Positions 20,176-32,285 of a DNA stretch of 32,285 nt are shown one piece after another. This stretch comes from a virus. Lineage: Duplodnaviria; Heunggongvirae; Uroviricota; Caudoviricetes. A program made the translations under genes and the position numbers. The notes beneath the pieces are model-generated. The model searched no databases. It worked only from the letters and a program-made list of their open reading frames with translations, and had not been told where the DNA came from. Location of the stretch: the IMG/VR virus record IMGVR_UViG_2728369188_000005; one strand, given 5' to 3'. Every line of letters starts with the position of its first letter. Within the stretch, counting starts at the first letter, position 1.

Positions 20176-23100
20176 ATGGGAAAAGGTGGCGGTAAGGCAC
20201 ACACGCCTCGTGAGGCGAAGGATAATCTCAAATCCACGCAGATGATGAGTGTGATTGATGCGATTGGTGAGGGACCGATAGAAGGTCCGGTGAAGGGACT
20301 GCAGAGTATTCTGGTGAACAAAACCCCACTGACGGACACGGACGGCAATCCCGTGATACACGGTGTGACGGCGGTCTGGCGCGCCGGGGAGCAGGAGCAG
20401 ACACCACCGGAAGGCTTTGAGTCCTCCGGAGCTGAAACCGGACTGGGCGTGGAAGTGACGAAGGCAAAACCGGTGACGCGCACCATTACGTCCGCGAACA
20501 TTGACCGCCTGCGGATTACCTTCGGGGTGCAGTCACTGGTGGAGACCACCTCAAAGGGTGACCGTAACCCGGCATCCGTCCGCCTGCTGATTCAGTTACA
20601 GCGTAACGGTAACTGGGTGACAGAAAAGGACGTCACCATTAACGGCAAGACCACCTCACAGTTCCTGGCCTCGGTGATTCTGGATAATCTGCCTCCCCGG
20701 CCCTTTAACATCCGGATGGTCAGGGAGACGGCGGACAGCACCACGGACCAGCTGCAGAATAAGACGCTGTGGTCGTCATACACCGAAATCATCGATGTGA
20801 AACAGTGCTACCCGAACACGGCCATTGTGGGGCTGCAGGTGGATGCGGAGCAGTTCGGCGGCCAGCAGATGACGGTGAACTACCATATCCGCGGTCGCAT
20901 CATCCAGGTGCCGTCAAACTATGACCCGGAAAAACGCACGTACAGTGGTATCTGGGACGGCAGTCTGAAACCGGCATACAGCAACAACCCGGCCTGGTGC
21001 CTGTGGGACATGCTGACTCACCCGCGCTACGGCATGGGAAAACGTCTGGGGGCGGCGGATGTGGACAAGTGGGCGCTGTATGCCATCGGGCAGTACTGCG
21101 ACCAGACGGTCCCGGATGGTTTCGGGGGGACAGAGCCGCGGATGACCTTTAATGCGTACCTGGCACAACAGCGTAAGGCGTGGGACGTTCTCAGTGATTT
21201 CTGCTCTGCGATGCGCTGTATGCCGGTATGGAACGGTCAGACGCTGACGTTCGTTCAGGACCGCCCGTCGGATGTGGTGTGGCCGTACACCAACAGCGAT
21301 GTGGTGGTGGATGATAACGGCGTGGGATTCCGCTACAGCTTCAGTGCCCTGAAGGACCGGCACACGGCGGTGGAGGTGAATTACACCGACCCGCAGAACG
21401 GCTGGCAGACCTCCACGGAACTGGTGGAAGACCCGGAAGCCATACTGCGCTACGGACGCAACCTGCTGAAGATGGACGCGTTCGGCTGTACCAGCCGCGG
21501 TCAGGCCCACCGTGCCGGACTGTGGGTGATAAAGACCGAACTGCTGGAAACGCAGACGGTGGATTTCACGCTCGGGTCTCAGGGGCTGCGGCACACACCC
21601 GGTGACATTATTGAAATCTGTGATAATGACTATGCCGGGACCCTGACCGGCGGACGTGTCCTGTCCATTGATGCTGCCACCCGCACCCTGACGCTGGACC
21701 GTGAGGTTACCCTGCCGGAGACAGGTACATCGGCGGTGAACCTGATTAACGGCAGCGGTAAGCCGGTGAGTGTGGACATCACCGCACACCCCGCGCCGGA
21801 CCGGATACAGGTCAGTACCCTGCCTGATGGTGTGGAGACATACGGGGTGTGGGGACTCTCCCTGCCGTCACTGCGCCGTCGCCTGTTCCGCTGTGTCTCC
21901 ATCCGGGAAAACACGGACGGCACCTTTGCCATCACGGCGGTGCAGCACGTACCGGAAAAAGAAGCCATCGTGGATAACGGTGCCCGCTTTGAGCCGCAGT
22001 CAGGCTCCCTGAACAGCGTCATCCCACCGGCAGTGCAGCACCTGACGGTGGAGGTGAGCGCAGCTGACGGCCAGTATCTGGCACAGGCGAAATGGGACAC
22101 GCCGCGGGTGGTGAAGGGGGTGCGCTTCAGTCTGCGACTGACCAGCGGAAGCGGAGAAGACAGCCGTCTGGTGACCACCGCTATCACTGCGGATACAGAG
22201 CATCGTTTCAGTGGTCTGCCGCTCGGGGAATACACCCTGACAGTCAGGGCAATTAACAGTTATGGCCAGCAGGGCGAACCGGCCACCACCACCTTCCGGA
22301 TTAACGCGCCAGCAAAACCCGCCACCATTGAACTGACGCCGGGGTATTTTCAGATAACAGCGGTACCGGTGCTGGCGGTGTATGACCCGACGGTACAGTT
22401 TGAATTCTGGTTCTCAGAAAAACGCATCACGAACACGGCACAGGTGGAAAAATCTGCCCGTTATCTGGGGACTGGCAGTCAGTGGACTGTCTCCGGCCCG
22501 CACATTAAGCCCGGGAAGGATTTCTGGTTTTATGTACGCAGCGTTAACCTGGTGGGGAAATCTGCTTTTGTTGAAGCCAGTGGACGGGCCAGCAATGATG
22601 CAGAAGGGTATCTGGGGCTGTTTCGGGAAAAAATAGGAAAACTGCATCTGGCTCAGGGGCTGTGGGAGCTGATAGACAACAGCCAGCTTGCGGATGAGAT
22701 GGCGGAGATGAAGACCACCATCACCGAAACCCGCAATGAAATCACACAGACGGTCAGTAAAACGCTGGAGGACCAGAGCGCCACCATACAGCAGATACAG
22801 CGCGTGCAGAAGGACACAAATGATGACCTTGCTGCACTTTACATGCTGAAGGTACAGAAAACAAAAAATGGCATACCCTATGTTGCCGGTATTGGAGCGG
22901 GGATTGAGGATACTGATGGCCAGCCCCTGAGCAACATACTGCTGCTGGCTGACCGTATTGCGATGATTAACCCGGAGGACGGCAACACCACGCCGTTATT
23001 TGTGGCGCAGGGGAATCAGTTGTTCATGAACGATGTGTTCCTGAAGCGGCTGTTTGCGGTGAGTATCACCTCGTCCGGCAATCCCCCGACGTTTTCCCTG

Positions 23101-23649
23101 ACGCCGGAGGGCAGGCTGACCGCAAGAAATGCTGATATCAGCGGTAACGTGAATGCGAACTCCGGGACGCTCAACAACGTCACGATTAACGAGAACTGTC
23201 GGGTTCTGGGAAAATTGTCCGCCAACCAGATTGAAGGCGATCTCGTTAAAACAGTGGGCAAAGCTTTCCCCCGGGACTCCCGTGCACCGGAGCGGTGGCC
23301 ATCAGGGACCATTACCGTCAGGGTTTATGACGATCAGCCGTTTGACCGGCAAATTGTTATTCCGGCGGTGGCATTCAGTGGCGCTAAGCATGAGAGAGAG
23401 CATACTGATATTTACTCCTCATGCCGTCTGATAGTGCGGAAAAACGGTGCTGAAATTTATAACCGTACCGCGCTGGATAATACGCTGATTTACAGTGGTG
23501 TTATTGATATGCCTGCCGGTCACGGTCACATGACGCTGGAGTTTTCGGTGTCAGCATGGCTGGTGAATAACTGGTATCCCACAGCAAGTATCAGCGATTT
23601 GCTGGTTGTTGTGATGAAGAAAGCCACTGCAGGCATCACGATTAGCTGA
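20176..23649 (+). CDS. J: Host specificity protein / central tail fibre gpJ, 1157 aa
   Basis: Collinear with lambda J (1132 aa) from [21 protein letters not shown]... through the fibronectin-like repeats to a C-terminal receptor-binding region ending ...[25 protein letters not shown]. Confidence 0.95.
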
Positions 23650-23668
23650 ATTTTATAACCCAGATACG

Positions 23669-23692
23669 GGCGCCAGAAATGGCGCCTTTTTT
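23669..23692 (+). terminator. Intrinsic terminator after J
   Basis: GGCGCCA(23669-23675), loop GAAA, TGGCGCC(23680-23686), then TTTTTT(23687-23692). The second copy at 26727-26750 keeps the structure through compensatory changes. Confidence 0.7.
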
Positions 23693-23716
23693 ATTGCAGA
23701 AAAGCGAGAGGTAATT

Positions 23717-24316
23717 ATGCGTAAATTATGTGCTGTTATTCTGTCCACAGTAGTCTGGCTGGTCGCCGCTGGTACGCCAGCGAGCGCAGCAGAGCATCAG
23801 TCCACACTAAGCGCGGGGTATCTTCATGCCCGTACGAACGCTCCCGGCAGCGATAATCTGAACGGGATTAACGTGAAATACCGTTATGAGTTTACGGACG
23901 CGCTGGGGCTGATTACGTCCTTCAGTTATGCCAATGCTGAGGATAAGCAAAAAACGCACTACAGCGATACCCGCTGGCATGAAGATTCCGTGCGTAACCG
24001 CTGGTTCAGCGTGATGGCGGGGCCGTCTGTGCGCGTGAATGAATGGTTCAGCGCGTATGTGATGGCGGGTATGGCTTACAGCCGTGTGTCGACTTTCTCC
24101 GGGGATTATCTCCGCGTAACTGACAACAAGGGGAAAAAGCACGATGTGCTGACCGGAAGTGATGACGGTCGCCACAGCAACACGTCTCTGGCGTGGGGGG
24201 CTGGCGTGCAGTTTAACCCGACCGAATCCGTGGCCATTGATATTGCTTATGAAGGCTCCGGCAGTGGCGACTGGCGCACTGACGGTTTCATCGTGGGTGT
24301 CGGTTATAAGTTCTGA
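23717..24316 (+). CDS. lom: Lom outer-membrane protein (Ail/Lom family beta-barrel), 199 aa
   Basis: Signal peptide (MRKLCAVILSTVVWLVAAGTPASA) followed by alternating beta-strand sequence ending in the C-terminal aromatic GYKF; lambda lom position directly after J. GAGAGG Shine-Dalgarno. Confidence 0.9.
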   Translation: MRKLCAVILSTVVWLVAAGTPASAAEHQSTLSAGYLHARTNAPGSDNLNGINVKYRYEFTDALGLITSFSYANAEDKQKTHYSDTRWHEDSVRNRWFSVMAGPSVRVNEWFSAYVMAGMAYSRVSTFSGDYLRVTDNKGKKHDVLTGSDDGRHSNTSLAWGAGVQFNPTESVAIDIAYEGSGSGDWRTDGFIVGVGYKF

Positions 24317-24342
24317 TTAGCCAGGTAACACAGTGTTATGAC

Positions 24343-24369
24343 AGCCCGCCGGTTCAGGCGGGCTTTTTT
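24343..24369 (+). terminator. Intrinsic terminator after lom
   Basis: AGCCCGCC(24343-24350), loop GGTTCA, GGCGGGCT(24357-24364), then TTTTT(24365-24369). Confidence 0.65.
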
Positions 24370-24380
24370 GTGGAGTGGAT

Positions 24381-24390
24381 NNNNNNNNNN
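24381..24390. other. Assembly gap (10 N)
   Basis: Run of n. Sequence before the gap ends at the stf 5-prime leader (GTGGAGTGGAT); sequence after it resumes in the middle of a J homologue. Confidence 0.95.
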
Positions 24391-26707
24391 CTTCAGCGCC
24401 CTGAAGGACCGCCATAATGCCGTTGAGGTGAACTGGATTGACCCGAACAACGGCTGGGAGACGGCGACAGAGCTTGTTGAAGATACGCAGGCCATTGCCC
24501 GTTACGGTCGTAATGTCACGAAGATGGATGCCTTTGGCTGTACCAGCCGGGGGCAGGCACACCGCGCCGGGCTGTGGCTGATTAAAACGGAACTGCTGGA
24601 AACGCAGACCGTGGATTTCAGCGTGGGCGCAGAAGGGCTTCGCCATGTGCCGGGCGATGTTATTGAAATCTGCGATGATGACTATGCCGGTATCAGCACC
24701 GGTGGTCGCGTGCTGGCGGTGAACAGCCAGACCCGGACGCTGACTCTCGACCGTGAAATCACGCTGCCATCCTCCGGTACCACGCTGATAAGCCTGGTTG
24801 ACGGAAGTGGCAATCCGGTCAGCGTGGAGGTTCAGTCCGTCACCGACGGCGTGAAGGTAAAAGTGAGCCGTGTTCCTGACGGTGTTGCTGAATACAGCGT
24901 ATGGGGGCTGAAGCTGCCGACGCTGCGCCAGCGACTGTTCCGCTGCGTGAGTATCCGTGAGAACGACGACGGCACGTATGCCATCACCGCCGTGCAGCAT
25001 GTGCCGGAAAAAGAGGCCATCGTGGATAACGGGGCGCACTTTGACGGCGAACAGAGTGGCACGGTGAATGGTGTCACGCCGCCAGCGGTGCAGCACCTGA
25101 CCGCAGAAGTCACTGCAGACAGCGGGGAATATCAGGTGCTGGCGCGATGGGACACACCGAAGGTGGTGAAGGGCGTGAGCTTCCTGCTTCGCCTGACCGT
25201 GGCAGCGGATGACGGCAGTGAGCGGCTGGTCAGCACGGCCCGGACGACGGAAACCACATACCGCTTCACGCAACTGGCGCTGGGAAACTACAGGCTGACA
25301 GTCCGGGCGGCAAATGCCTGGGGGCAGCAGGGCGATCCGGCATCGGTATCGTTCCGTATTGCCGCACCGGCAGCGCCGTCGCGGATTGAGCTGACGCCGG
25401 GCTATTTTCAGATAACCGCCACGCCCCATCTTGCCGTTTATGATCCGACGGTACAGTTTGAGTTCTGGTTCTCGGAAAAGCGGATTGCGGATATCAGGCA
25501 GGTTGAAACCACAGCCCGCTATCTTGGCACGGCGCTGTACTGGATAGCTGCCAGTATCAATATCAAACCGGGCCATGATTATTATTTTTACATCCGCAGT
25601 GTGAACACCGTTGGCAAATCGGCATTTGTGGAGGCTGTTGGCCAGCCGAGTGATGATGCATCCGGCTATCTGGATTTTTTCAAAGGCGAGATAGGGAAAA
25701 GCCATCTGGCTCAGGAGCTGTGGACGCAGATTGATAACGGTCAGCTTGCGCCTGACCTGGCTGAAATCAGGACGTCCATTACGGATGTCAGCAATGAAAT
25801 CACGCAGACCGTCAATAAGAAACTGGAAGACCAGAGTGCGGCAATTCAGCAGATACAGAAGGTTCAGGTTGATACAAATAATAACCTGAACAGCATGTGG
25901 GCTGTGAAGCTGCAGCAGATGCAGGACGGACGCCTTTATATCGCGGGTATTGGTGCCGGTATTGAGAATACCCCTGACGGTATGCAGAGTCAGGTGCTGC
26001 TGGCGGCGGACAGGATTGCGATGATTAATCCTGCGAATGGCAATACAAAGCCGATGTTTGTTGGTCAGGGCGATCAGATATTCATGAACGAAGTGTTCCT
26101 GAAATATCTGACGGCTCCCACCATTACCAGCGGCGGTAATCCTCCGGCATTTTCCCTGACACCGGACGGGCGGCTGACGGCGAAAAATGCCGATATCAGC
26201 GGTAGCGTGAATGCGAACTCCGGGACGCTCAACAACGTCACGATTAACGAGAACTGTCGGGTTCTGGGAAAACTGTCCGCGAACCAGATTGAAGGCGATC
26301 TCGTTAAAACAGTGGGCAAAGCTTTCCCCCGGGACTCCCGTGCACCGGAGCGGTGGCCATCAGGGACCATTACCGTCAGGGTTTATGACGATCAGCCGTT
26401 TGACCGGCAAATTGTTATTCCGGCGGTGGCATTCAGTGGCGCTAAGCATGAGAGAGAGCATACTGATATTTACTCCTCATGCCGTCTGATAGTGCGGAAA
26501 AACGGTGCTGAAATTTATAACCGTACCGCGCTGGATAATACGCTGATTTACAGTGGCGTTATTGATATGCCTGCCGGTCACGGTCACATGACGCTGGAGT
26601 TTTCGGTGTCAGCATGGCTGGTAAATGACTGGTATCCCACAGCAAGTATCAGCGATTTGCTGGTTGTGGTGATGAAGAAAGCCACCGCAGGCATCAGTAT
26701 CAGCTGA
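24391..26707 (+). CDS. J: Second gpJ copy, 5-prime truncated by the gap (C-terminal ~770 aa present), diverged from copy 1
   Basis: Begins [31 protein letters not shown]..., which aligns with J copy 1 from about residue 385. Roughly 70-80% identical by eye through most of its length, but nearly identical over the last ~500 nt (26206-26620 versus 23148-23560). Confidence 0.85.
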
Positions 26708-26726
26708 ATTTTATAACCCCAATACG

Positions 26727-26750
26727 GGCGTCAGAAATGACGCCTTTTTT
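26727..26750 (+). terminator. Intrinsic terminator after J copy 2
   Basis: GGCGTCA(26727-26733), loop GAAA, TGACGCC(26738-26744), then TTTTTT. Differs from copy 1 by a compensatory pair (C to T in the left arm, G to A in the right arm). Confidence 0.7.
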
Positions 26751-26774
26751 ATTGCAGAAAAGCGAGAGGTAATT

Positions 26775-27374
26775 ATGCGTAAATTATGTGCTGTTATTCT
26801 GTCCACAGTAGTCTGGCTGGTCGCCGCTGGTACGCCAGCGAGCGCAGCAGAGCATCAGTCCACACTAAGCGCCGGGTATCTTCAGACCCATACTGATATG
26901 CCCGGCAACGATGACCTGAAGGGCATTAACGTGAAATACCGTTATGAATTTACGGACACGCTGGGGCTGGTGACGTCATTCAGTTATGCCAATGCCAAAG
27001 ATGAGCAAAAAACGCATTACAGCGATACCCGCTGGCATGAAGATTCAGTGCGTAACCGCTGGTTCAGCATGATGGCGGGGCCGTCTGTACGCGTGAATGA
27101 ATGGTTCAGTGCTTATGCGATGGCAGGTGTGGCTTACAGCCGTGTTTCGACTTTTTCCGGGGATTATCTCCGCGTAACTGACAGCAAGGGGAAAACGCAC
27201 GATGTGCTGACCGGAAGTGATGACGGTCGCCACAGCAACACGTCTCTGGCGTGGGGGGCTGGCGTGCAGTTTAACCCGACCGAATCCGTGGCCATTGATA
27301 TTGCTTATGAAGGCTCCGGCAGTGGTGACTGGCGCACTGACGGTTTCATCGTGGGTGTCGGTTATAAATTCTGA
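26775..27374 (+). CDS. lom: Lom outer-membrane protein, second copy, 199 aa
   Basis: About 90% identical by eye to lom copy 1 (differences include HARTNAPGSDNLNG versus QTHTDMPGNDDLKG); same signal peptide and C-terminus. Confidence 0.9.
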   Translation: MRKLCAVILSTVVWLVAAGTPASAAEHQSTLSAGYLQTHTDMPGNDDLKGINVKYRYEFTDTLGLVTSFSYANAKDEQKTHYSDTRWHEDSVRNRWFSMMAGPSVRVNEWFSAYAMAGVAYSRVSTFSGDYLRVTDSKGKTHDVLTGSDDGRHSNTSLAWGAGVQFNPTESVAIDIAYEGSGSGDWRTDGFIVGVGYKF

Positions 27375-27400: not shown

Positions 27401-27427
27401 AGCCCGCCGGTTCAGGCGGGCTTTTTT
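27401..27427 (+). terminator. Intrinsic terminator after lom copy 2
   Basis: Same AGCCCGCC / GGCGGGCT hairpin and T run as after lom copy 1. Confidence 0.65.
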
Positions 27428-27438
27428 GTGGAGTGGAT

Positions 27439-29846
27439 ATGGCAGCAGTAAAAATCTCAGGTGTGCTGAAAGATGGTGCGGGAAAACCAATACAGAACTG
27501 CACTATTCAACTGAAGGCAAAGCGTAACAGCACCACGGTACTGGTGAACACGGTGGCCTCTGAAAATCCTGATGAAGCCGGGCGTTACAGCATGGATGTT
27601 GAGTATGGCCAGTACAGCGTCACCCTGCTGGTTGAAGGTTNNNNNNNNNNNNNNNNNNNNNNNNNNNNNNNNNNNNNNNNNNNNNNNNNNNNNNNNNNNN
27701 NNNNNNNNNTTCCAGACCAGGTACGCTGAATGATTTTCTCGGTGCCATGACGGAGGATGATGTCCGACCGGAGGCACTGCGCCGCTTTGAGCAGATGGTG
27801 GAAGAAGCGGCACGCAACGCTGAAGCCGCCTCTCAGAGCGCAGCGGCGGCAAAGAAATCCGAAACTGCAGCGGCATCATCGAAGAACGCGGCGAAAACCT
27901 CAGAAACGAATGCAGCTAATAGTGCACAGGCGGCAGCGACCTCAAAGACTGCATCGGCAAACTCCGCGACAGCAGCCAAAAAATCAGAAACCAACGCGAA
28001 AAATAGCGAGACAGCCGCAAAGACGAGCGAAACCAACGCAAAGTCCAGCCAGACGGCAGCGAAAACCAGCGAAACGAATGCCAAAGCCAGTGAAACTGCG
28101 GCAAAAAACAGCCAGGTTGCAGCAGCCCAAAGCGAGAGCGCGGCAGCCGGTTCTGCGACTTCAGCAGCTGGATCAGCAACTGCTGCAGCTAACAGCCAGA
28201 AAGCAGCGAAGACGAGCGAAACTAACGCAAAGTCCAGCCAGACGGCAGCGAAGACCAGCGAAACGAATGCCAAAGCCAGCGAAACTGCGGCGAAAAACAG
28301 CCAGGTTGCAGCAGCCCAAAGCGAGAGCGCGGCAGTTGGTTCTGCAAGCGCGGCGGCTGCTTCTGCCACTGCATCAGCCAACAGTCAAAAAGCGGCAAAA
28401 ACCAGTGAAACCAATGCAAAGACAAGCGAGACTGCAGCGGCCAACTCGGCGAAAGCATCCGCTGCAAACCAGACCGCTGCAAAAGCAAGTGAAGACGCAG
28501 CCAGAGAGTATGCAAGCCAGGCAGCAGATCCGTATAAATATGTCTTACAGCCGCTGCCTGATGTGTGGATACCGTTTAACGATTCACTGGATATGATTAC
28601 GGGCTTTTCGCCATCATATAAAAAGATTGTTATTGGTGACGACGAAATAACGATGCCTGGCGACAAGATTGTTAAGTTTAAACGTGCATCGAAAGCAACC
28701 TATATTAACAAATCTGGTGTGCTGACAGAGGCTGCCATTGATGAGCCACGATTTGAACGTGATGGCCTGCTTATTGAGGGGCAAAGAACTAATCTTCTGC
28801 TTAATTCAACAAATCCATCTAAATGGAATAAGTCAGGCAATCTGGAACTCACAGAAATATCCACGGATTCTTTTAATTTTACTTATGGGAGATTTACTGT
28901 AAAAGATACTCTTATTGGTCAGACAAGTGCTATTAATATCGTAACGGTTTCTGGCAGTAAAGGGTTTGATGTCACAGGTGATGAAAAATATGTGACCATT
29001 TCATGCCGTGTAAGAAGTGATGTTGAAAATGTAAGGTGTCGTTTAAGATTTGAACACCATGATGGTTATACTTACACTTTTTTGGGAGATGCTTACCTCA
29101 ATTTATCAACACTTGTAATTGATAAAGCTGGTACTGCTGCAGACCGTATTATTGCAAAGGCTGTAAAAGATGAGGTTACTGGTTGGATTTTCTATCAGGC
29201 TACAATTAATGCACTAGATACAGAGAGCATGATTGGTGCGATGGTTCAATACGCTCCTGTAAAAGGTTCAGGCACAGCATCTGGAGACTATCTGGATATC
29301 GCAACTCCACAAGTGGAAGGTGGATCAAGTGCTTCGTCATTTATTGTAACTGATATAACTGCAAGCACTCGCGCAAGCGATATGGTGACAGTCCCAATCA
29401 AGAATAACCTTTATAATCTTCCTTTTACGGTTCTTTGTGAGGTACATAAGAACTGGTATAAAACGCCAAATGCAGCACCGCGTGTTTTTGATACCGGCGG
29501 TCATCAAACCGGAGCGGCTATTATTCTTGGCTTCGGTCGTTCAACAGATTACGACGGATTTCCTTATTGTGATATAGGTTTGGCTAACAGACGGGTAAAC
29601 GAAAACGCATCGCTTGAAAAAATGGTTATGGGGATGCGTGTAAAGTCAGATCAGTCTACGTGCTCAGTAAGTAACGGGCGTATATCCAGCGAAAAGAAAG
29701 CCACATGGTCCTATATTCAGAACTCCGCAATTATCCGTATTGGAGGCCAGACTACAGCCGGGTTACGTCATTTATTTGGTCATGTCAGGAATTTCAGAAT
29801 ATGGCACAAGGCATTGACTGATGCTCAGATGGGGGAGTCAATCTAA
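27439..29846 (+). CDS. stf: Side tail fibre protein Stf, interrupted by the N gap at 27641-27709
   Basis: N-terminus MAAVKISGVLKDGAGKPIQNCTIQLKAKRNSTTVLVNTVASENPDEAGRYSMDVEYGQYSVTLLVEG matches lambda Stf. After the gap the frame continues ...PGTLNDFLGAMTEDDVRPEALRRFEQMVEE..., then an Ala/Ser/Thr-rich repeat shaft and a ~430-aa C-terminal domain. True length and frame continuity across the gap are unknown. Confidence 0.85.
27641..27709. other. Assembly gap (69 N) inside stf
   Basis: Run of n. Confidence 0.95.
28018..28395 (+). repeat. Tandem duplication of a 189-bp (63-aa) unit within the stf shaft
   Basis: GACGAGCGAAAC...AGCCAGACGGCAGCG recurs with period 189 nt (28022 and 28211); protein unit AKTSETNAKSSQTAAKTSETNAKASETAAKNSQVAAAQSESAA... 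occurs twice. Confidence 0.7.
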
Positions 29847-30074
29847 TGAAAGATTTAACACTCAAATTTGCAGACAGGGCCGACTTTTCGGCCTTTATGG
29901 ATAGCATTGGCTATTATGATGACGAGTCGATGCAGGATGATATTCTTATTGACGTGATAGGTAATGTGTACAAAGAAACCGGAGAACTGACTGAAGATGG
30001 CGAACCGGTATGTGTTAAGGAAGACGGATATTTTGTAAACGTGCGCATCATTAATGATTCGCAAATATCGTCAT
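29846..30074 (+). CDS. Hypothetical protein, 3-prime end lost in the N gap (N-terminal 76 aa visible)
   Basis: ATG 29846 overlaps the stf stop (TAATG), with GGGGGAG 8 nt upstream. MKDLTLKFADRADFSAFMDSIGYYDDESMQDDILIDVIGNVYKETGELTEDGEPVCVKEDGYFVNVRIINDSQISS; acidic and soluble; not recognised. Confidence 0.5.
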
Positions 30075-30172
30075 NNNNNNNNNNNNNNNNNNNNNNNNNN
30101 NNNNNNNNNNNNNNNNNNNNNNNNNNNNNNNNNNNNNNNNNNNNNNNNNNNNNNNNNNNNNNNNNNNNNNNN
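30075..30172. other. Assembly gap (98 N)
   Basis: Run of n. Confidence 0.95.
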
Positions 30173-30833
30173 GGGAGATGTCAGTAAGGCAAAGGAAGAT
30201 ATTTCCTCAATTAACGTAAAAGTATCAACGCTTCAGACTGATATGGACAGTGCAAAGCAGGATATCAGTACCAGATACACAAAAACAGAAGTGGATAATA
30301 AGCTGAAAAACAAAGTGGAAGTGAACGATCTGGAAAGTGGTCGTTATGGCGGAGATTTTTACCCGCTGACTGGCCGTGAAGCGTTTTATTTATGGGGATT
30401 GGGCACAACTACAGCGGCGGCAAATCTTTATCTTAATCCTGACCCCGCAATTTCGTCTGTGCTGCGGTCAACATCGTCTATCCGCTATAAACATTCAGTA
30501 GAGACGATAGATTCAGAGCACGCCGATCTCATTTTCAGGATGCGCCCTGTGTGGTACAGGTCGCAATGCGAAAATGACAGGCGTGACTGGGGATTCTATG
30601 GATTGATTGCCGAGGAAGTAGGAGAAATTGCCCCTCAGTTTGTTCACTGGCGACCAGCTAACGAGAATGATGCTCCTGAAGCTATTTCCAGCAATGGCCT
30701 TGTTGCCGAAGGTGTAATGTACGAACGTCTGGTTGTTCCACTGATTCACCATATCCAGAAACTGACTGAAAGAGTTGATGAACTTGAGTCAGAATTAAAG
30801 TTGTTATCAACTTCCCGAAGCGATATCGGATAA
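30173..30833 (+). CDS. C-terminal part of a tail fibre/tailspike with a peptidase-S74-type intramolecular chaperone domain (5-prime end in gap)
   Basis: Coiled-coil stretch (DISSINVKVSTLQTDMDSAKQDISTRYTKTEVDNKLKNKVEVNDLE), then SSIRYKHSVETIDSEHADLIF...DWGFYGLIAEEVGEIAPQFV...NGLVAEGVMYERLVVPLIHHIQKLTERVDELESELKLL. From memory this is the hallmark of the self-cleaving C-terminal chaperone of phage fibres (endosialidase, T5 L-fibre type). Confidence 0.6.
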
Positions 30834-30843
30834 AGGAGGAGTA

Positions 30844-31137
30844 ATGGATATAACACCTTTCCTTCATGCACTTTGTGCTGTGGCTGCGCAGGTACTGGTT
30901 GGTCTTTTTACCGGAAACTGGGCTTACGGGGCGATAGCCGGTTGTACGTTCTTCATTGCTCGTGAACATACCCAGGCAGAATATCGCTGGATTGAAATGT
31001 TCGGGCATGGCAAGCGAATGAATATGCCGTGGTGGGGCGGTTTTGATCCGCGCGCGTGGGATGTAGCAAGTCTGATGGATTTTGCTGTGCCGGTGGTGGC
31101 GTGTCTGCTGGTCTGGCTGTTGGTTAATCGTGGGTGA
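30844..31137 (+). CDS. Small predicted membrane protein, 97 aa, function unknown
   Basis: Perfect AGGAGG Shine-Dalgarno 4 nt upstream of ATG 30844. Two or three hydrophobic segments (FLHALCAVAAQVLVGLF, AYGAIAGCTFFIA, FAVPVVACLLVWLLV). Confidence 0.6.
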   Translation: MDITPFLHALCAVAAQVLVGLFTGNWAYGAIAGCTFFIAREHTQAEYRWIEMFGHGKRMNMPWWGGFDPRAWDVASLMDFAVPVVACLLVWLLVNRG

Positions 31138-31147
31138 AAAAAGGTGA

Positions 31148-31276
31148 GCTGTATATGCAACGGAGGAAGAAACCTCGTTGCTGGAAGCCTGGAAGAAGTA
31201 TCGGGTGTTGCTGAACCGTGTTGATACATCAACTGCACCTGATATTGAGTGGCCTACGAACCCTGTCAGGGAGTAA
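31148..31276 (+). pseudogene. tfa: Remnant 3-prime end of a tail fibre assembly gene (tfa), no start codon
   Basis: Reads ...[39 protein letters not shown] stop, the conserved Tfa C-terminus. It is preceded in frame by a stop at 31145-31147 and has no upstream Tfa N-terminal domain. Confidence 0.6.
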
Positions 31277-31416: not shown

Positions 31417-31950
31417 TTAAGCCTTCTTCGGAATCTTTTGTGNNNNNNNNNNNNNNNNNNNNNNNNNNNNNNNNNNNNNNNNNNNNNNNNNNNNNNNNNN
31501 NNNNNNNNNNNNNNNNNNNNNNNNNNNNNNNNNNNNNNNNNNNNNNNNNNNNNNNNNNNNNNNNNNNNNNNNNNNNNNNNNNNNNNNNNNNNNNNNNNNN
31601 NNNNNNNNNNNNNNNNNNNNNNNNNNNNNNNNNNNTTCAAAAACATCATGGCTAATTTTATGTTTAATTTTTGATTCCCCAGCCCTTGTAGATGCCGCGT
31701 TCAGGCTAGCTTCGTTCAAATCCATTAAAGATATCAGACTACTCTCAGGTACGTGAGTAAGATAAAACCCAGTTCCAACACCAATATCCAGATGGTTGTT
31801 ACCTAAATGTTCCAGAAAGTGTGGAAGAAGGTGTTCCTTTGTAGGACATCCCCATGCAAGCCGATTTGATACTCCCAAAACCCACCAGTCATAAAGCTTT
31901 AGGGTAAGTGGTGTGTAAATTTTAGCCCCATCATCTGTGTTTTTTTTCAT
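31417..31950 (-). CDS. Class I SAM-dependent methyltransferase-like protein (minus strand), interrupted by the N gap at 31443-31635
   Basis: Minus-strand ORF whose N-terminal 105 aa (MKKNTDDGAKIYTPLTLKLYDWWVLGVSNRLAWGCPTKEHLLPHFLEHLGNNHLDIGVGTGFYLTHVPESS...) contains a Rossmann motif-I-like LDIGVGTGF. GGTGA Shine-Dalgarno precedes ATG 31950 (alternative ATG 31962). The C-terminal 8 codons after the gap end at the stop at 31417-31419; frame across the gap is unverifiable. Confidence 0.45.
   Translation of the reverse strand: MKKNTDDGAKIYTPLTLKLYDWWVLGVSNRLAWGCPTKEHLLPHFLEHLGNNHLDIGVGTGFYLTHVPESSLISLMDLNEASLNAASTRAGESKIKHKISHDVFEXXXXXXXXXXXXXXXXXXXXXXXXXXXXXXXXXXXXXXXXXXXXXXXXXXXXXXXXXXXXXXXXXQKIPKKA
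31443..31635. other. Assembly gap (193 N)
   Basis: Run of n. Confidence 0.95.
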
Positions 31951-32018: not shown

Positions 32019-32285
32019 ATGCTGCCGCAGCATAGCGATATTGAAATAGCCTGGTATGCTTCGATACAGCAGGAGCCGAATGGCTGGAAGACCGTCACCA
32101 CACAGTTCTACATCCAGGAATTCAGTGAGTATATTGCGCCACTGCAGGATGCTGTAGATCTGGAAATCGCAACGGAGGAAGAAAGATCGTTGCTGGAGGC
32201 ATGGAATAAATATCGGGTGTTGTTGAATCGTGTTGATACATCAACTGCACCTGATATTGAGTGGCCGACTTCACCTGCAGAGTAA
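32019..32285 (+). CDS. tfa: Tail fibre assembly protein Tfa-like, short form (C-terminal domain only), 88 aa
   Basis: ...[50 protein letters not shown] matches the conserved lambda/e14 Tfa C-terminus. AAGGGG Shine-Dalgarno before ATG 32019; stop coincides with the window end. Confidence 0.7.

What the first reader, a model, noticed from the sequence alone, without database searches (positions are those of the whole stretch)
30844..31137. Strongly translated small membrane protein immediately after the fibre gene: candidate superinfection-exclusion or receptor-masking factor
A 97-aa protein with two to three hydrophobic segments and a perfect AGGAGG ribosome-binding site sits directly downstream of a receptor-binding fibre gene. 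Several phages place small membrane proteins or lipoproteins that block their own receptor next to the receptor-binding gene (cor of phi80, llp of T5). The family is not recognisable by eye, so this is a functional guess from context.
Basis: inference. Interest (0 to 1): 0.5.

Follow-up and report, generated by a model that had tools for sequence, protein, structure and literature searches.

The report
Widespread fibre-linked prophage membrane protein
The 97-residue gene is real and encodes a three-helix inner-membrane protein of a very common but uncharacterised family that sits just after the receptor-binding genes of temperate phages; it is not a cor/llp-type receptor blocker, and its function is still unknown.

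Summary
The ORF at 30844-31137, its AGGAGG site and its position 10 nt after a tail-fibre gene are all confirmed. It is under strong purifying selection (median dN/dS 0.08). It occurs in 1887 of 5426 complete E. coli genomes and matches PHROG phrog_1443 ('unknown function') over its full length. It has no Pfam, NCBIfam, PADLOC, PDB or fold match. AlphaFold2 (pLDDT 93) gives three helices. Charge distribution suggests an N-in topology, with an almost invariant polar motif (H8, R40-E41-x-x-Q-A-E-Y-R-W, R58, W72, D79, P83) at the cytoplasmic face. In temperate phages of several proteobacterial classes the gene lies at the 3' flank of tail-fibre, tailspike or tail-tip genes. The same allele sits behind unrelated fibre genes, and there is no lipobox, so receptor-specific masking (Cor/Llp) is not supported. 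In two virulent phage groups it is a pseudogene behind intact tailspike genes. Aeromonas and Sphingomonas carry chromosomal homologues in non-phage contexts. Published LF82 RNA-seq shows background expression in LB; two of three copies are induced in macrophages, and the copy arranged like this window is silent. Best guess, at low confidence: an accessory inner-membrane factor that is independent of fibre type and alters the envelope or phage entry in the lysogen. No function was tested.

The parts
30844..31137 (+). 97-aa three-helix inner-membrane protein, family phrog_1443 (WP_000355609.1 in E. coli FDAARGOS_536)
30834..30839 (+). AGGAGG Shine-Dalgarno site, 4 nt before the ATG and abutting the stop codon of the upstream fibre gene
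   Evidence: the junction AAGGAG(G/T)AGTAATGGATATAAC is also present in phage Gally
30121..30833 (+). Upstream neighbour: 234-aa short tail-fibre protein with a Peptidase_S74 intramolecular chaperone domain. Its start lies in the masked stretch 30075-30172, so the start coordinate is approximate.
29846..30119 (+). 93-aa acidic protein (phrog_1361 / phrog_18574). It is the usual partner gene of the fibre and lies directly next to the 97-aa gene in phage 21. Its stop is hidden in the mask, so the end coordinate is approximate.
27433..29846 (+). Side tail fibre (Stf): phage_tail_N N-terminus, Ala/Ser/Thr-rich repeats, and a C-terminal domain homologous to the fibre or tail proteins that precede the family gene in Comamonas and Chelativorans prophages
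31157..31276 (+). 3' remnant of a tail-fibre assembly (tfa) gene directly downstream. It is a recombination scar marking the end of the fibre cassette.

Best explanation
Shown: the gene encodes a stand-alone protein of about 100 aa with three predicted helices, from a large uncharacterised proteobacterial family. About a dozen polar and aromatic residues are almost invariant: H8, R40, E41, Q44, E46, Y47, R48, R58, W72, D79 and P83. In temperate phages the gene lies at the 3' edge of receptor-binding-protein cassettes. Inferred from charge distribution: N-terminus in the cytoplasm, the conserved 40-73 loop at the cytoplasmic face, and C-terminus outside. Inferred from comparative data: the gene is maintained by selection in prophages. 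It is dispensable for the fibre itself, because it decays in virulent phages that keep the tailspike. Its action does not depend on which receptor the neighbouring fibre binds. Proposed mechanism (inference only): the conserved pocket binds or processes a universal inner-membrane component, either a lipid or lipid-linked carrier or a conserved membrane machine. This would be the same activity that the chromosomal homologues perform in Aeromonas and Sphingomonas. Phages would use it as an accessory factor, made late in infection or conditionally in the lysogen, that changes envelope or entry properties in a receptor-independent way. That would be a generic lysogenic-conversion or exclusion function, not masking of one receptor.
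For: The gene is real and under selection: dN/dS 0.08, and it is in 35% of complete E. coli genomes with a median of 2 copies. Structure and conserved motif. Lys+Arg count is 5.9 in loop 40-75 against 0.14 in turn 22-27. Linkage to receptor-binding genes in unrelated phages: phage 21, Gally, a Leclercia tailspike and a Chelativorans tail protein, Comamonas gpJ and fibre, and Desulfovibrio, where it lies between a tailspike and a tail protein. Independence from fibre type: identical or near-identical alleles sit behind three non-homologous upstream genes. Dispensable for the fibre: frameshifted remnants lie behind intact tailspike genes in the HC6 group and in a Kuttervirus. Cellular homologues in conserved non-phage neighbourhoods. 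Conditional transcription in lysogens: Gally copy log2FC +4.9 and Perceval copy +3.0 in macrophages (PMC9928086 tables S1 and S4).
Against: No biochemical or phenotypic data exist. There is no fold or sequence link to any enzyme or exclusion protein. Topology rests on the positive-inside rule only; the phage 21 record cites TMHMM with 2 TMDs and a SignalP signal peptide. In LB-grown lysogens all three LF82 copies are at background, and the Tritos copy, which has this window's architecture, is silent in all five conditions. No promoter-like or terminator-like site flanks the gene in this window. Intact copies in Aeromonas phages, including a jumbo phage, show the gene is not confined to temperate phages. 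The position could simply be the usual cargo slot at the end of late operons.
Confidence: 0.3

Rival explanations
1. Host-physiology cargo unrelated to phage infection. The protein would perform the same housekeeping membrane function as its chromosomal homologues (for example stress, redox, metal or lipid homeostasis) and benefit the lysogen in the host environment. Its position after the fibre gene would only reflect the usual cargo slot at the end of the late operon.
For: Homologues with the same invariant residues sit in housekeeping neighbourhoods in Aeromonas and Sphingomonadales. Two LF82 copies are induced in macrophages and in cell-culture conditions. The gene lies next to the sitABCD cargo in phage 21 and Perceval. 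Its GC content (51%) is higher than that of the neighbouring fibre genes.
Against: It is linked specifically to receptor-binding genes, not merely to operon ends. In a Desulfovibrio prophage and an Aeromonas jumbo phage it lies between tail genes. The fibre / 93-aa / 97-aa trio is conserved from alpha- to gammaproteobacterial prophages. It is at background expression in LB lysogens.
Confidence: 0.25
2. Inner-membrane superinfection exclusion by protein-protein block of genome entry, working like HK97 gp15, T4 Imm or P22 SieA. The protein would interfere with the channel or ejection proteins that incoming phages use.
For: It is a small polytopic inner-membrane protein, carried by prophages in multiple copies per genome. 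In Gally it is an independent unit at the conversion locus and is transcribed in the lysogen under some conditions.
Against: It has no homology to any known exclusion or defence family. The conserved surface is predicted to face the cytoplasm. Strongly conserved housekeeping-context homologues in non-phage settings are unusual for exclusion proteins. It is silent in LB lysogens and in one copy throughout.
Confidence: 0.2
3. Helper for the lytic cycle, linked to the fibre: a membrane factor needed for fibre or tailspike maturation, or for timing of release.
For: In this window it is translationally adjacent to the fibre gene, with no promoter-like or terminator-like site between or after them, so it should be made with the late proteins. 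It is embedded among tail genes in some phages. The trio with the fibre and the 93-aa protein is conserved.
Against: It is a pseudogene behind intact S74 tailspike genes in virulent phages. Chromosomal homologues have no phage genes nearby. The same protein sits behind unrelated fibres. Gally separates it from the tailspike gene by a terminator.
Confidence: 0.08
4. Receptor-specific masking like Cor (phi80, N15) or Llp (T5): the protein blocks the receptor used by the adjacent fibre.
For: Only its position next to a receptor-binding gene.
Against: There is no cleavable signal peptide with lipobox; C11 is not conserved and its context H-A-L-C does not fit a lipobox. It has no homology to such families. 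Alleles with 0-3 differences lie behind three non-homologous upstream genes, and an 81%-identical copy lies behind a P22-type tailspike. The predicted location is the inner membrane.
Confidence: 0.03

Closest known systems
PHROG phrog_1443 (and the fragment family phrog_34165); phage 21 CPT_21_24 'putative membrane protein'; RefSeq WP_000355609.1 'hypothetical protein'
   Same: Full-length HMM match at E=3.5e-59. 94-98% identical copies occur in about 50 lambdoid phage records and in 1887 E. coli genomes.
   Different: Nothing differs: this is the family itself. It has no assigned function.
HK97 gp15, T4 Imm, P22 SieA (inner-membrane superinfection-exclusion proteins)
   Same: Small phage-encoded inner-membrane proteins. 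HK97 gp15 is likewise a cargo gene inside the late or tail region (my own knowledge, with the reference list seen).
   Different: No sequence similarity. This family has enzyme-like invariant residues and chromosomal homologues. Exclusion was not tested.
Cor (phi80/N15/HK022) and Llp (T5) receptor-blocking lipoproteins
   Same: They are encoded next to receptor-binding genes.
   Different: Those are outer-membrane lipoproteins specific for FhuA (my own knowledge). This protein has no lipobox, is predicted in the inner membrane, and does not co-vary with the fibre.
Lysogenic-conversion genes between the tailspike gene and attP in P22-like phages (gtrABC, oac), and the small hydrophobic O-antigen polymerase inhibitors of epsilon15 and D3
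   Same: Same locus in phage Gally: after the tailspike terminator and before int. All are membrane proteins.
   Different: No match to GtrA or any Pfam family. Homologues in Sphingomonadales, which lack classical LPS (my own knowledge), argue against an O-antigen-specific activity.
DgkA (121-aa, three-helix membrane kinase), as a precedent for very small membrane enzymes
   Same: Similar size, three helices, and a conserved acidic/basic cluster predicted at the cytoplasmic membrane interface.
   Different: No sequence or fold match. This is an analogy only.

Membership tests
phrog_1443 (uncharacterised phage protein family) | Full-length match to the family HMM | tested here: met
   E=3.5e-59, residues 1-96 against profile positions 1-96 of 97
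Cor / Llp receptor-blocking lipoproteins | N-terminal signal peptide ending in a lipobox cysteine | tested here: not met
   C11 has the context H-A-L-C and is only 44% conserved; helix 1 carries the invariant H8 and Q16 and is part of the fold
Cor / Llp receptor-blocking lipoproteins | Sequence homology to the family | tested here: not met
   The PHROG scan returns only phrog_1443, phrog_34165 and one weak unknown family; PADLOC returns none
Cor / Llp receptor-blocking lipoproteins | Specific pairing with the receptor-binding protein whose receptor it blocks | tested here: not met
   The same alleles (0-3 aa differences) lie behind the 234-aa S74 fibre, the 346-aa S74 fibre and the 92-aa protein
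Cor / Llp receptor-blocking lipoproteins | Blocks adsorption through the cognate outer-membrane receptor | not testable with these tools
   Needs plating and adsorption assays
Inner-membrane superinfection-exclusion proteins (HK97 gp15, T4 Imm, P22 SieA) | Integral inner-membrane protein | tested here: met
   Three predicted helices at pLDDT 93, with hydrophobic stretches 4-24, 25-39 and 74-96; this is a prediction only
Inner-membrane superinfection-exclusion proteins (HK97 gp15, T4 Imm, P22 SieA) | Sequence or fold homology to a characterised member | tested here: not met
Inner-membrane superinfection-exclusion proteins (HK97 gp15, T4 Imm, P22 SieA) | Expressed from the prophage in the lysogen | tested here: inconclusive
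   LF82 RNA-seq: all copies are at background in LB. Gally and Perceval copies are induced in macrophages (log2FC 4.9 and 3.0). The Tritos copy is silent. No promoter-like site was found in this window.
Inner-membrane superinfection-exclusion proteins (HK97 gp15, T4 Imm, P22 SieA) | Blocks genome entry of superinfecting phage | not testable with these tools
   Needs infection assays
Class I holins | Three TMDs N-out/C-in, a charged C-terminal tail, and a gene adjacent to an endolysin gene | tested here: not met
   The C-tail is only N-R-G. The charge pattern favours N-in/C-out. No lysis gene is adjacent in the window, phage 21 or Gally. Non-phage chromosomal homologues exist.
GtrA-type / O-antigen conversion proteins | Match to GtrA (PF04138) or another glycan-modification family | tested here: not met
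   No Pfam or NCBIfam hit above noise; only the position in Gally resembles a conversion locus
Tail-fibre assembly chaperones (Tfa) | Homology to Tfa, and requirement for the neighbouring fibre | tested here: not met
   No homology. It is a membrane protein, and it is pseudogenised behind intact tailspike genes in HC6 and KFSST3.

The most novel reading that the evidence does not exclude
The family is a previously unrecognised miniature membrane enzyme or ligand-binding protein of about 100 aa and three helices, with a conserved H/R/E/Q/E/R/D pocket at the cytoplasmic leaflet. It acts on a universal lipid or lipid-linked carrier. Temperate phages of several proteobacterial classes have co-opted it as a generic envelope-conversion or exclusion factor that travels with receptor-binding-protein cassettes.
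Probability: 0.2. Interest if true: 0.65.

Novelty: new member of a known kind. Interest (0 to 1): 0.4.

Why it matters
This is one of the commonest unannotated prophage genes in E. coli: about a third of complete genomes carry it, often in several copies. Its conservation pattern looks like a binding or catalytic site rather than a mere membrane anchor. It is linked to receptor-binding gene cassettes across very distant phages. Finding its activity would explain a recurrent piece of phage tail-fibre modules, which matters for host-range engineering and for reading prophage cargo. It might also add a new very small membrane protein function. As it stands it is an uncharacterised 'hypothetical protein', not a demonstrated exclusion factor.

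Tried and rejected
- Pfam, NCBIfam and PADLOC scans gave nothing, apart from a noise-level PhoR N-terminal hit at E=0.05, below the cut-off.
- A PDB sequence profile search gave nothing.
- The profile search of 1.8 billion representatives found only stand-alone proteins of 63-146 aa, so no domain fusion gives a clue.
- No conserved operon partner was found. Upstream and downstream neighbours of distant homologues are heterogeneous: ligA, pirin, NadB-like, RmuC, DsbA-like, cyclopropane-fatty-acid synthase, aspartyl protease.
- Literature searches by accession, by PHROG id and by context terms found no paper on this protein. The Tai tail-assembly-interference systems are unrelated, with no transmembrane proteins. 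The LF82 CRISPRi preprint does not mention the gene.
- Holin idea: rejected (see membership test).
- The idea that the gene is conserved only as a DNA recombination anchor: rejected, because dS reaches 0.24 while dN stays at or below 0.016.
- A genome-collection scan with the divergent alignment A2 failed because it had no conserved 7-mer; alignment A1 was used instead.

Full report
**1. Observation**

The ORF at 30844-31137 (+) is present as described: ATG start, 97 codons, TGA stop. AGGAGG lies at 30834-30839. It follows the TAA stop (30831-30833) of the upstream gene and sits 4 nt before the ATG.

Part of the upstream region is masked in the window (N run 30075-30172). The window is otherwise identical to E. 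coli FDAARGOS_536 (locus L001). In that record the upstream gene is a 234-aa 'tail fiber domain-containing protein' and the ORF is WP_000355609.1 'hypothetical protein'. The fibre protein carries a Peptidase_S74 intramolecular chaperone domain and matches the C-termini of tail-fibre PHROGs.

The window is the late region of a lambdoid prophage. The gene order is J, lom, a second partial J, a second lom, stf, a 93-aa gene, the S74 fibre gene, the 97-aa gene, a tfa remnant, a minus-strand methyltransferase, and a second tfa remnant. In L001 the prophage ends next to potB.

**2. The gene is real and common**

- It matches PHROG phrog_1443 ('unknown function') over its whole length at E=3.5e-59.
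- It has no Pfam, NCBIfam or PADLOC match.
- 53 phage records, all Escherichia, carry it at 80-98% nucleotide identity. These include phage 21, where it is annotated only as 'putative membrane protein'.
- 1887 of 5426 complete E. coli genomes carry it, with a median of 2 copies and up to 7.
- Among E. coli copies differing from the window by 8-15 nt, median dN/dS is 0.08. Selection therefore acts on the protein, not just the DNA.

**3. Protein anatomy**

A search of 5.8 billion proteins gave 583 homologues, all named 'hypothetical' or unnamed. An exhaustive profile search of 1.8 billion representatives gave 458 clusters, essentially all stand-alone proteins of about 90-120 aa.

Some positions are invariant or nearly so even among members only 30-45% identical. 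These are H8, R40, E41, Q44, A45, E46, Y47, R48, R58, W72, D79 and P83. Glycines at 24 and 29 and the MPWWGGFD stretch are also frequent.

AlphaFold2 with a 65-sequence alignment gives pLDDT 93 and three helices: 4-23, 26-53 and 74-96. No solved or predicted viral structure gives more than a generic helical match.

Across about 100 diverse members, the 40-75 loop carries on average 5.9 Lys+Arg and the 22-27 turn carries 0.14. By the positive-inside rule this favours N-in, a cytoplasmic loop and C-out. H8, R40/E41 and D79 would then lie together at the cytoplasmic leaflet. This topology is an inference. The phage 21 record quotes a different TMHMM/SignalP reading.

The density of invariant polar and aromatic residues resembles a binding or catalytic site. 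That reading is my interpretation.

**4. Genomic context**

In about 90 Escherichia loci, three non-homologous genes account for most immediate upstream neighbours:
- the 234-aa S74 fibre gene (37 loci, as in this window);
- a 92-93-aa acidic protein of phrog_1361 (24 loci, as in phage 21);
- a 346-aa S74 fibre gene (22 loci).

Identical or nearly identical alleles of the small protein (0-3 substitutions) occur behind all three.

In the P22-like phage Gally an 81%-identical copy follows the tailspike gene and precedes int. It is separated from the tailspike gene by a clear intrinsic terminator and 190 bp of AT-rich DNA. P22 itself carries gtrABC at this locus (my own knowledge).

The same position after a receptor-binding or tail-tip gene occurs in several other places:
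- a Leclercia prophage, after a tailspike gene;
- Comamonas prophages, after gpJ or fibre genes;
- a Chelativorans prophage;
- a Desulfovibrio prophage, between an S74 tailspike gene and a tail protein gene;
- an Aeromonas jumbo phage, before a tailspike gene.

The C-terminal 430 aa of the window's Stf is homologous to the Chelativorans protein (E=1e-8, aligned to the last residue) and to the Comamonas fibre (E=1e-7). The 93-aa protein has a remote counterpart in Comamonas. A trio of fibre, 93-aa gene and 97-aa gene is therefore old. Within it the fibre has diverged to about 25% identity while the membrane protein stays at 54-60%.

**5. Two observations that limit the interpretation**

First, the gene is a decayed remnant in some virulent phages. 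In the HC6 group of virulent E. coli siphoviruses and in Kuttervirus KFSST3, the sequence behind an intact tailspike gene is a frameshifted, truncated remnant of this gene; the HC6 tailspike carries an S74 domain. So the gene travels with tailspike cassettes but is not needed for the tailspike to work.

Second, the family also exists outside phages. In Aeromonas it lies between a pirin gene and a RIO1-type kinase gene, an arrangement shared by several species. In Sphingomonadales it lies in housekeeping neighbourhoods, several times just after ligA. No conserved partner gene emerged. The underlying activity is therefore probably not phage-specific.

**6. Expression**

In this window no promoter-like or terminator-like site flanks the gene. 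It should be transcribed with the late operon. Terminator-like hairpins bracket lom just upstream of stf.

Strain LF82 carries three copies, in prophages Gally, Perceval and Tritos. Published RNA-seq (PMC9928086, Table 1 and tables S1 and S4) shows the following:
- None is listed as a gene expressed from the prophage in LB; all three are at prophage background there.
- Within macrophages the Gally copy (LF82_765) rises with log2FC 4.9.
- The Perceval copy (LF82_183) rises with log2FC 3.0, together with its fibre and 92-aa genes. J stays low and lom is unchanged.
- The Tritos copy (LF82_259) has the same architecture as this window. It stays at 1-17 raw reads in all five conditions, although the fibre genes just upstream are induced.

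Expression in lysogens is thus conditional and copy-dependent, not constitutive.

**7. Interpretation**

The specific analogy to Cor or Llp fails on every testable feature: there is no lipobox, no homology, the predicted location is the inner membrane, and the protein does not co-vary with the fibre.

A fibre-assembly role is unlikely, given the pseudogenes behind intact tailspike genes and the non-phage homologues. A holin role is unlikely: there is no charged tail, no adjacent lysis gene, and the predicted topology is opposite.

What remains is an accessory inner-membrane protein that is kept by selection in temperate phages and acts independently of fibre type. I rank the possibilities as follows.
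- A generic envelope- or entry-modifying factor, working through its conserved cytoplasmic-face pocket on a universal membrane component (0.3). This reconciles the cellular homologues with the linkage to receptor-binding genes.
- A host-physiology cargo gene unrelated to phage infection (0.25).
- A protein-protein block of genome entry like HK97 gp15, T4 Imm or P22 SieA (0.2).
- A lytic-cycle helper (0.08).
- Receptor-specific masking (0.03).

None of these was tested functionally, and nothing here identifies the substrate or partner.

**8. Novelty and score**

The family is already catalogued (phrog_1443, RefSeq 'hypothetical protein') but uncharacterised. I found no paper on it. I file it as a new member of a known kind: a prophage accessory membrane protein.

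Its abundance, its enzyme-like conservation and its deep linkage to fibre cassettes make it a reasonable experimental target. Nothing found here is very surprising, and the exclusion idea remains a guess. Interest: 0.4.

Noticed in passing
window 20176-27374: After J (20176-23649) and lom (23717-24316) there is a 789-aa ORF (24338-26707). It is a diverged second copy of the C-terminal two-thirds of J (71-95% nt identity, repeat spacing about 3055 nt). A second lom follows it (26775-27374, 91% aa identity to the first). This is a tandem J'-lom duplication carrying different alleles.
   Followed up: partly
window 31157-31257 and 32169-32269: Two 3' remnants of tail-fibre assembly (tfa) genes, 91% identical direct repeats, flank a minus-strand class I SAM-dependent methyltransferase gene. 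They look like scars of repeated cassette exchange at the prophage end.
   Followed up: partly
window 27963-28340: A 189-nt tandem duplication (85% identity) inside stf encodes the Ala/Ser/Thr-rich 'KTSETNAK' repeat region of the fibre shaft.
   Followed up: no
window 26726-26745 and 27401-27422: Terminator-like hairpins with T runs bracket the second lom gene, so stf and the genes after it start just after a terminator.
   Followed up: no
window 29846-30119; L109 6432-6995; L098 6714-7001: The 93-aa acidic protein (phrog_1361/phrog_18574) is in nearly all E. coli loci that carry the 97-aa gene. It has remote counterparts directly upstream of the family gene in Comamonas prophages. It occupies the place of a fibre chaperone, but its function is unknown.
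   Followed up: partly
L007 3960-4220 (phage HC6); L008 3990-4160 (Salmonella phage KFSST3): Unannotated, frameshifted remnants of the family gene lie directly behind intact tailspike genes in virulent phages. This indicates that tailspike cassettes were acquired from temperate phages.
   Followed up: yes
LF82 prophages Perceval and Tritos (PMC9928086, tables S1 and S4): The side-fibre genes and the 92-93-aa gene are induced 13- to 230-fold in macrophages, while J, lom and the rest of the late operon stay near background. This suggests an unrecognised internal promoter or relief of silencing upstream of stf.
   Followed up: no
window 30075-30172 and other N runs (about 27640-27710 and 31440-31640): Masked stretches hide the stop of the 93-aa gene and the start of the S74 fibre gene. 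The mask at 30075-30172 is 8 nt shorter than the real sequence in L001, so ORFs that read through it in the window are artefacts.
   Followed up: yes
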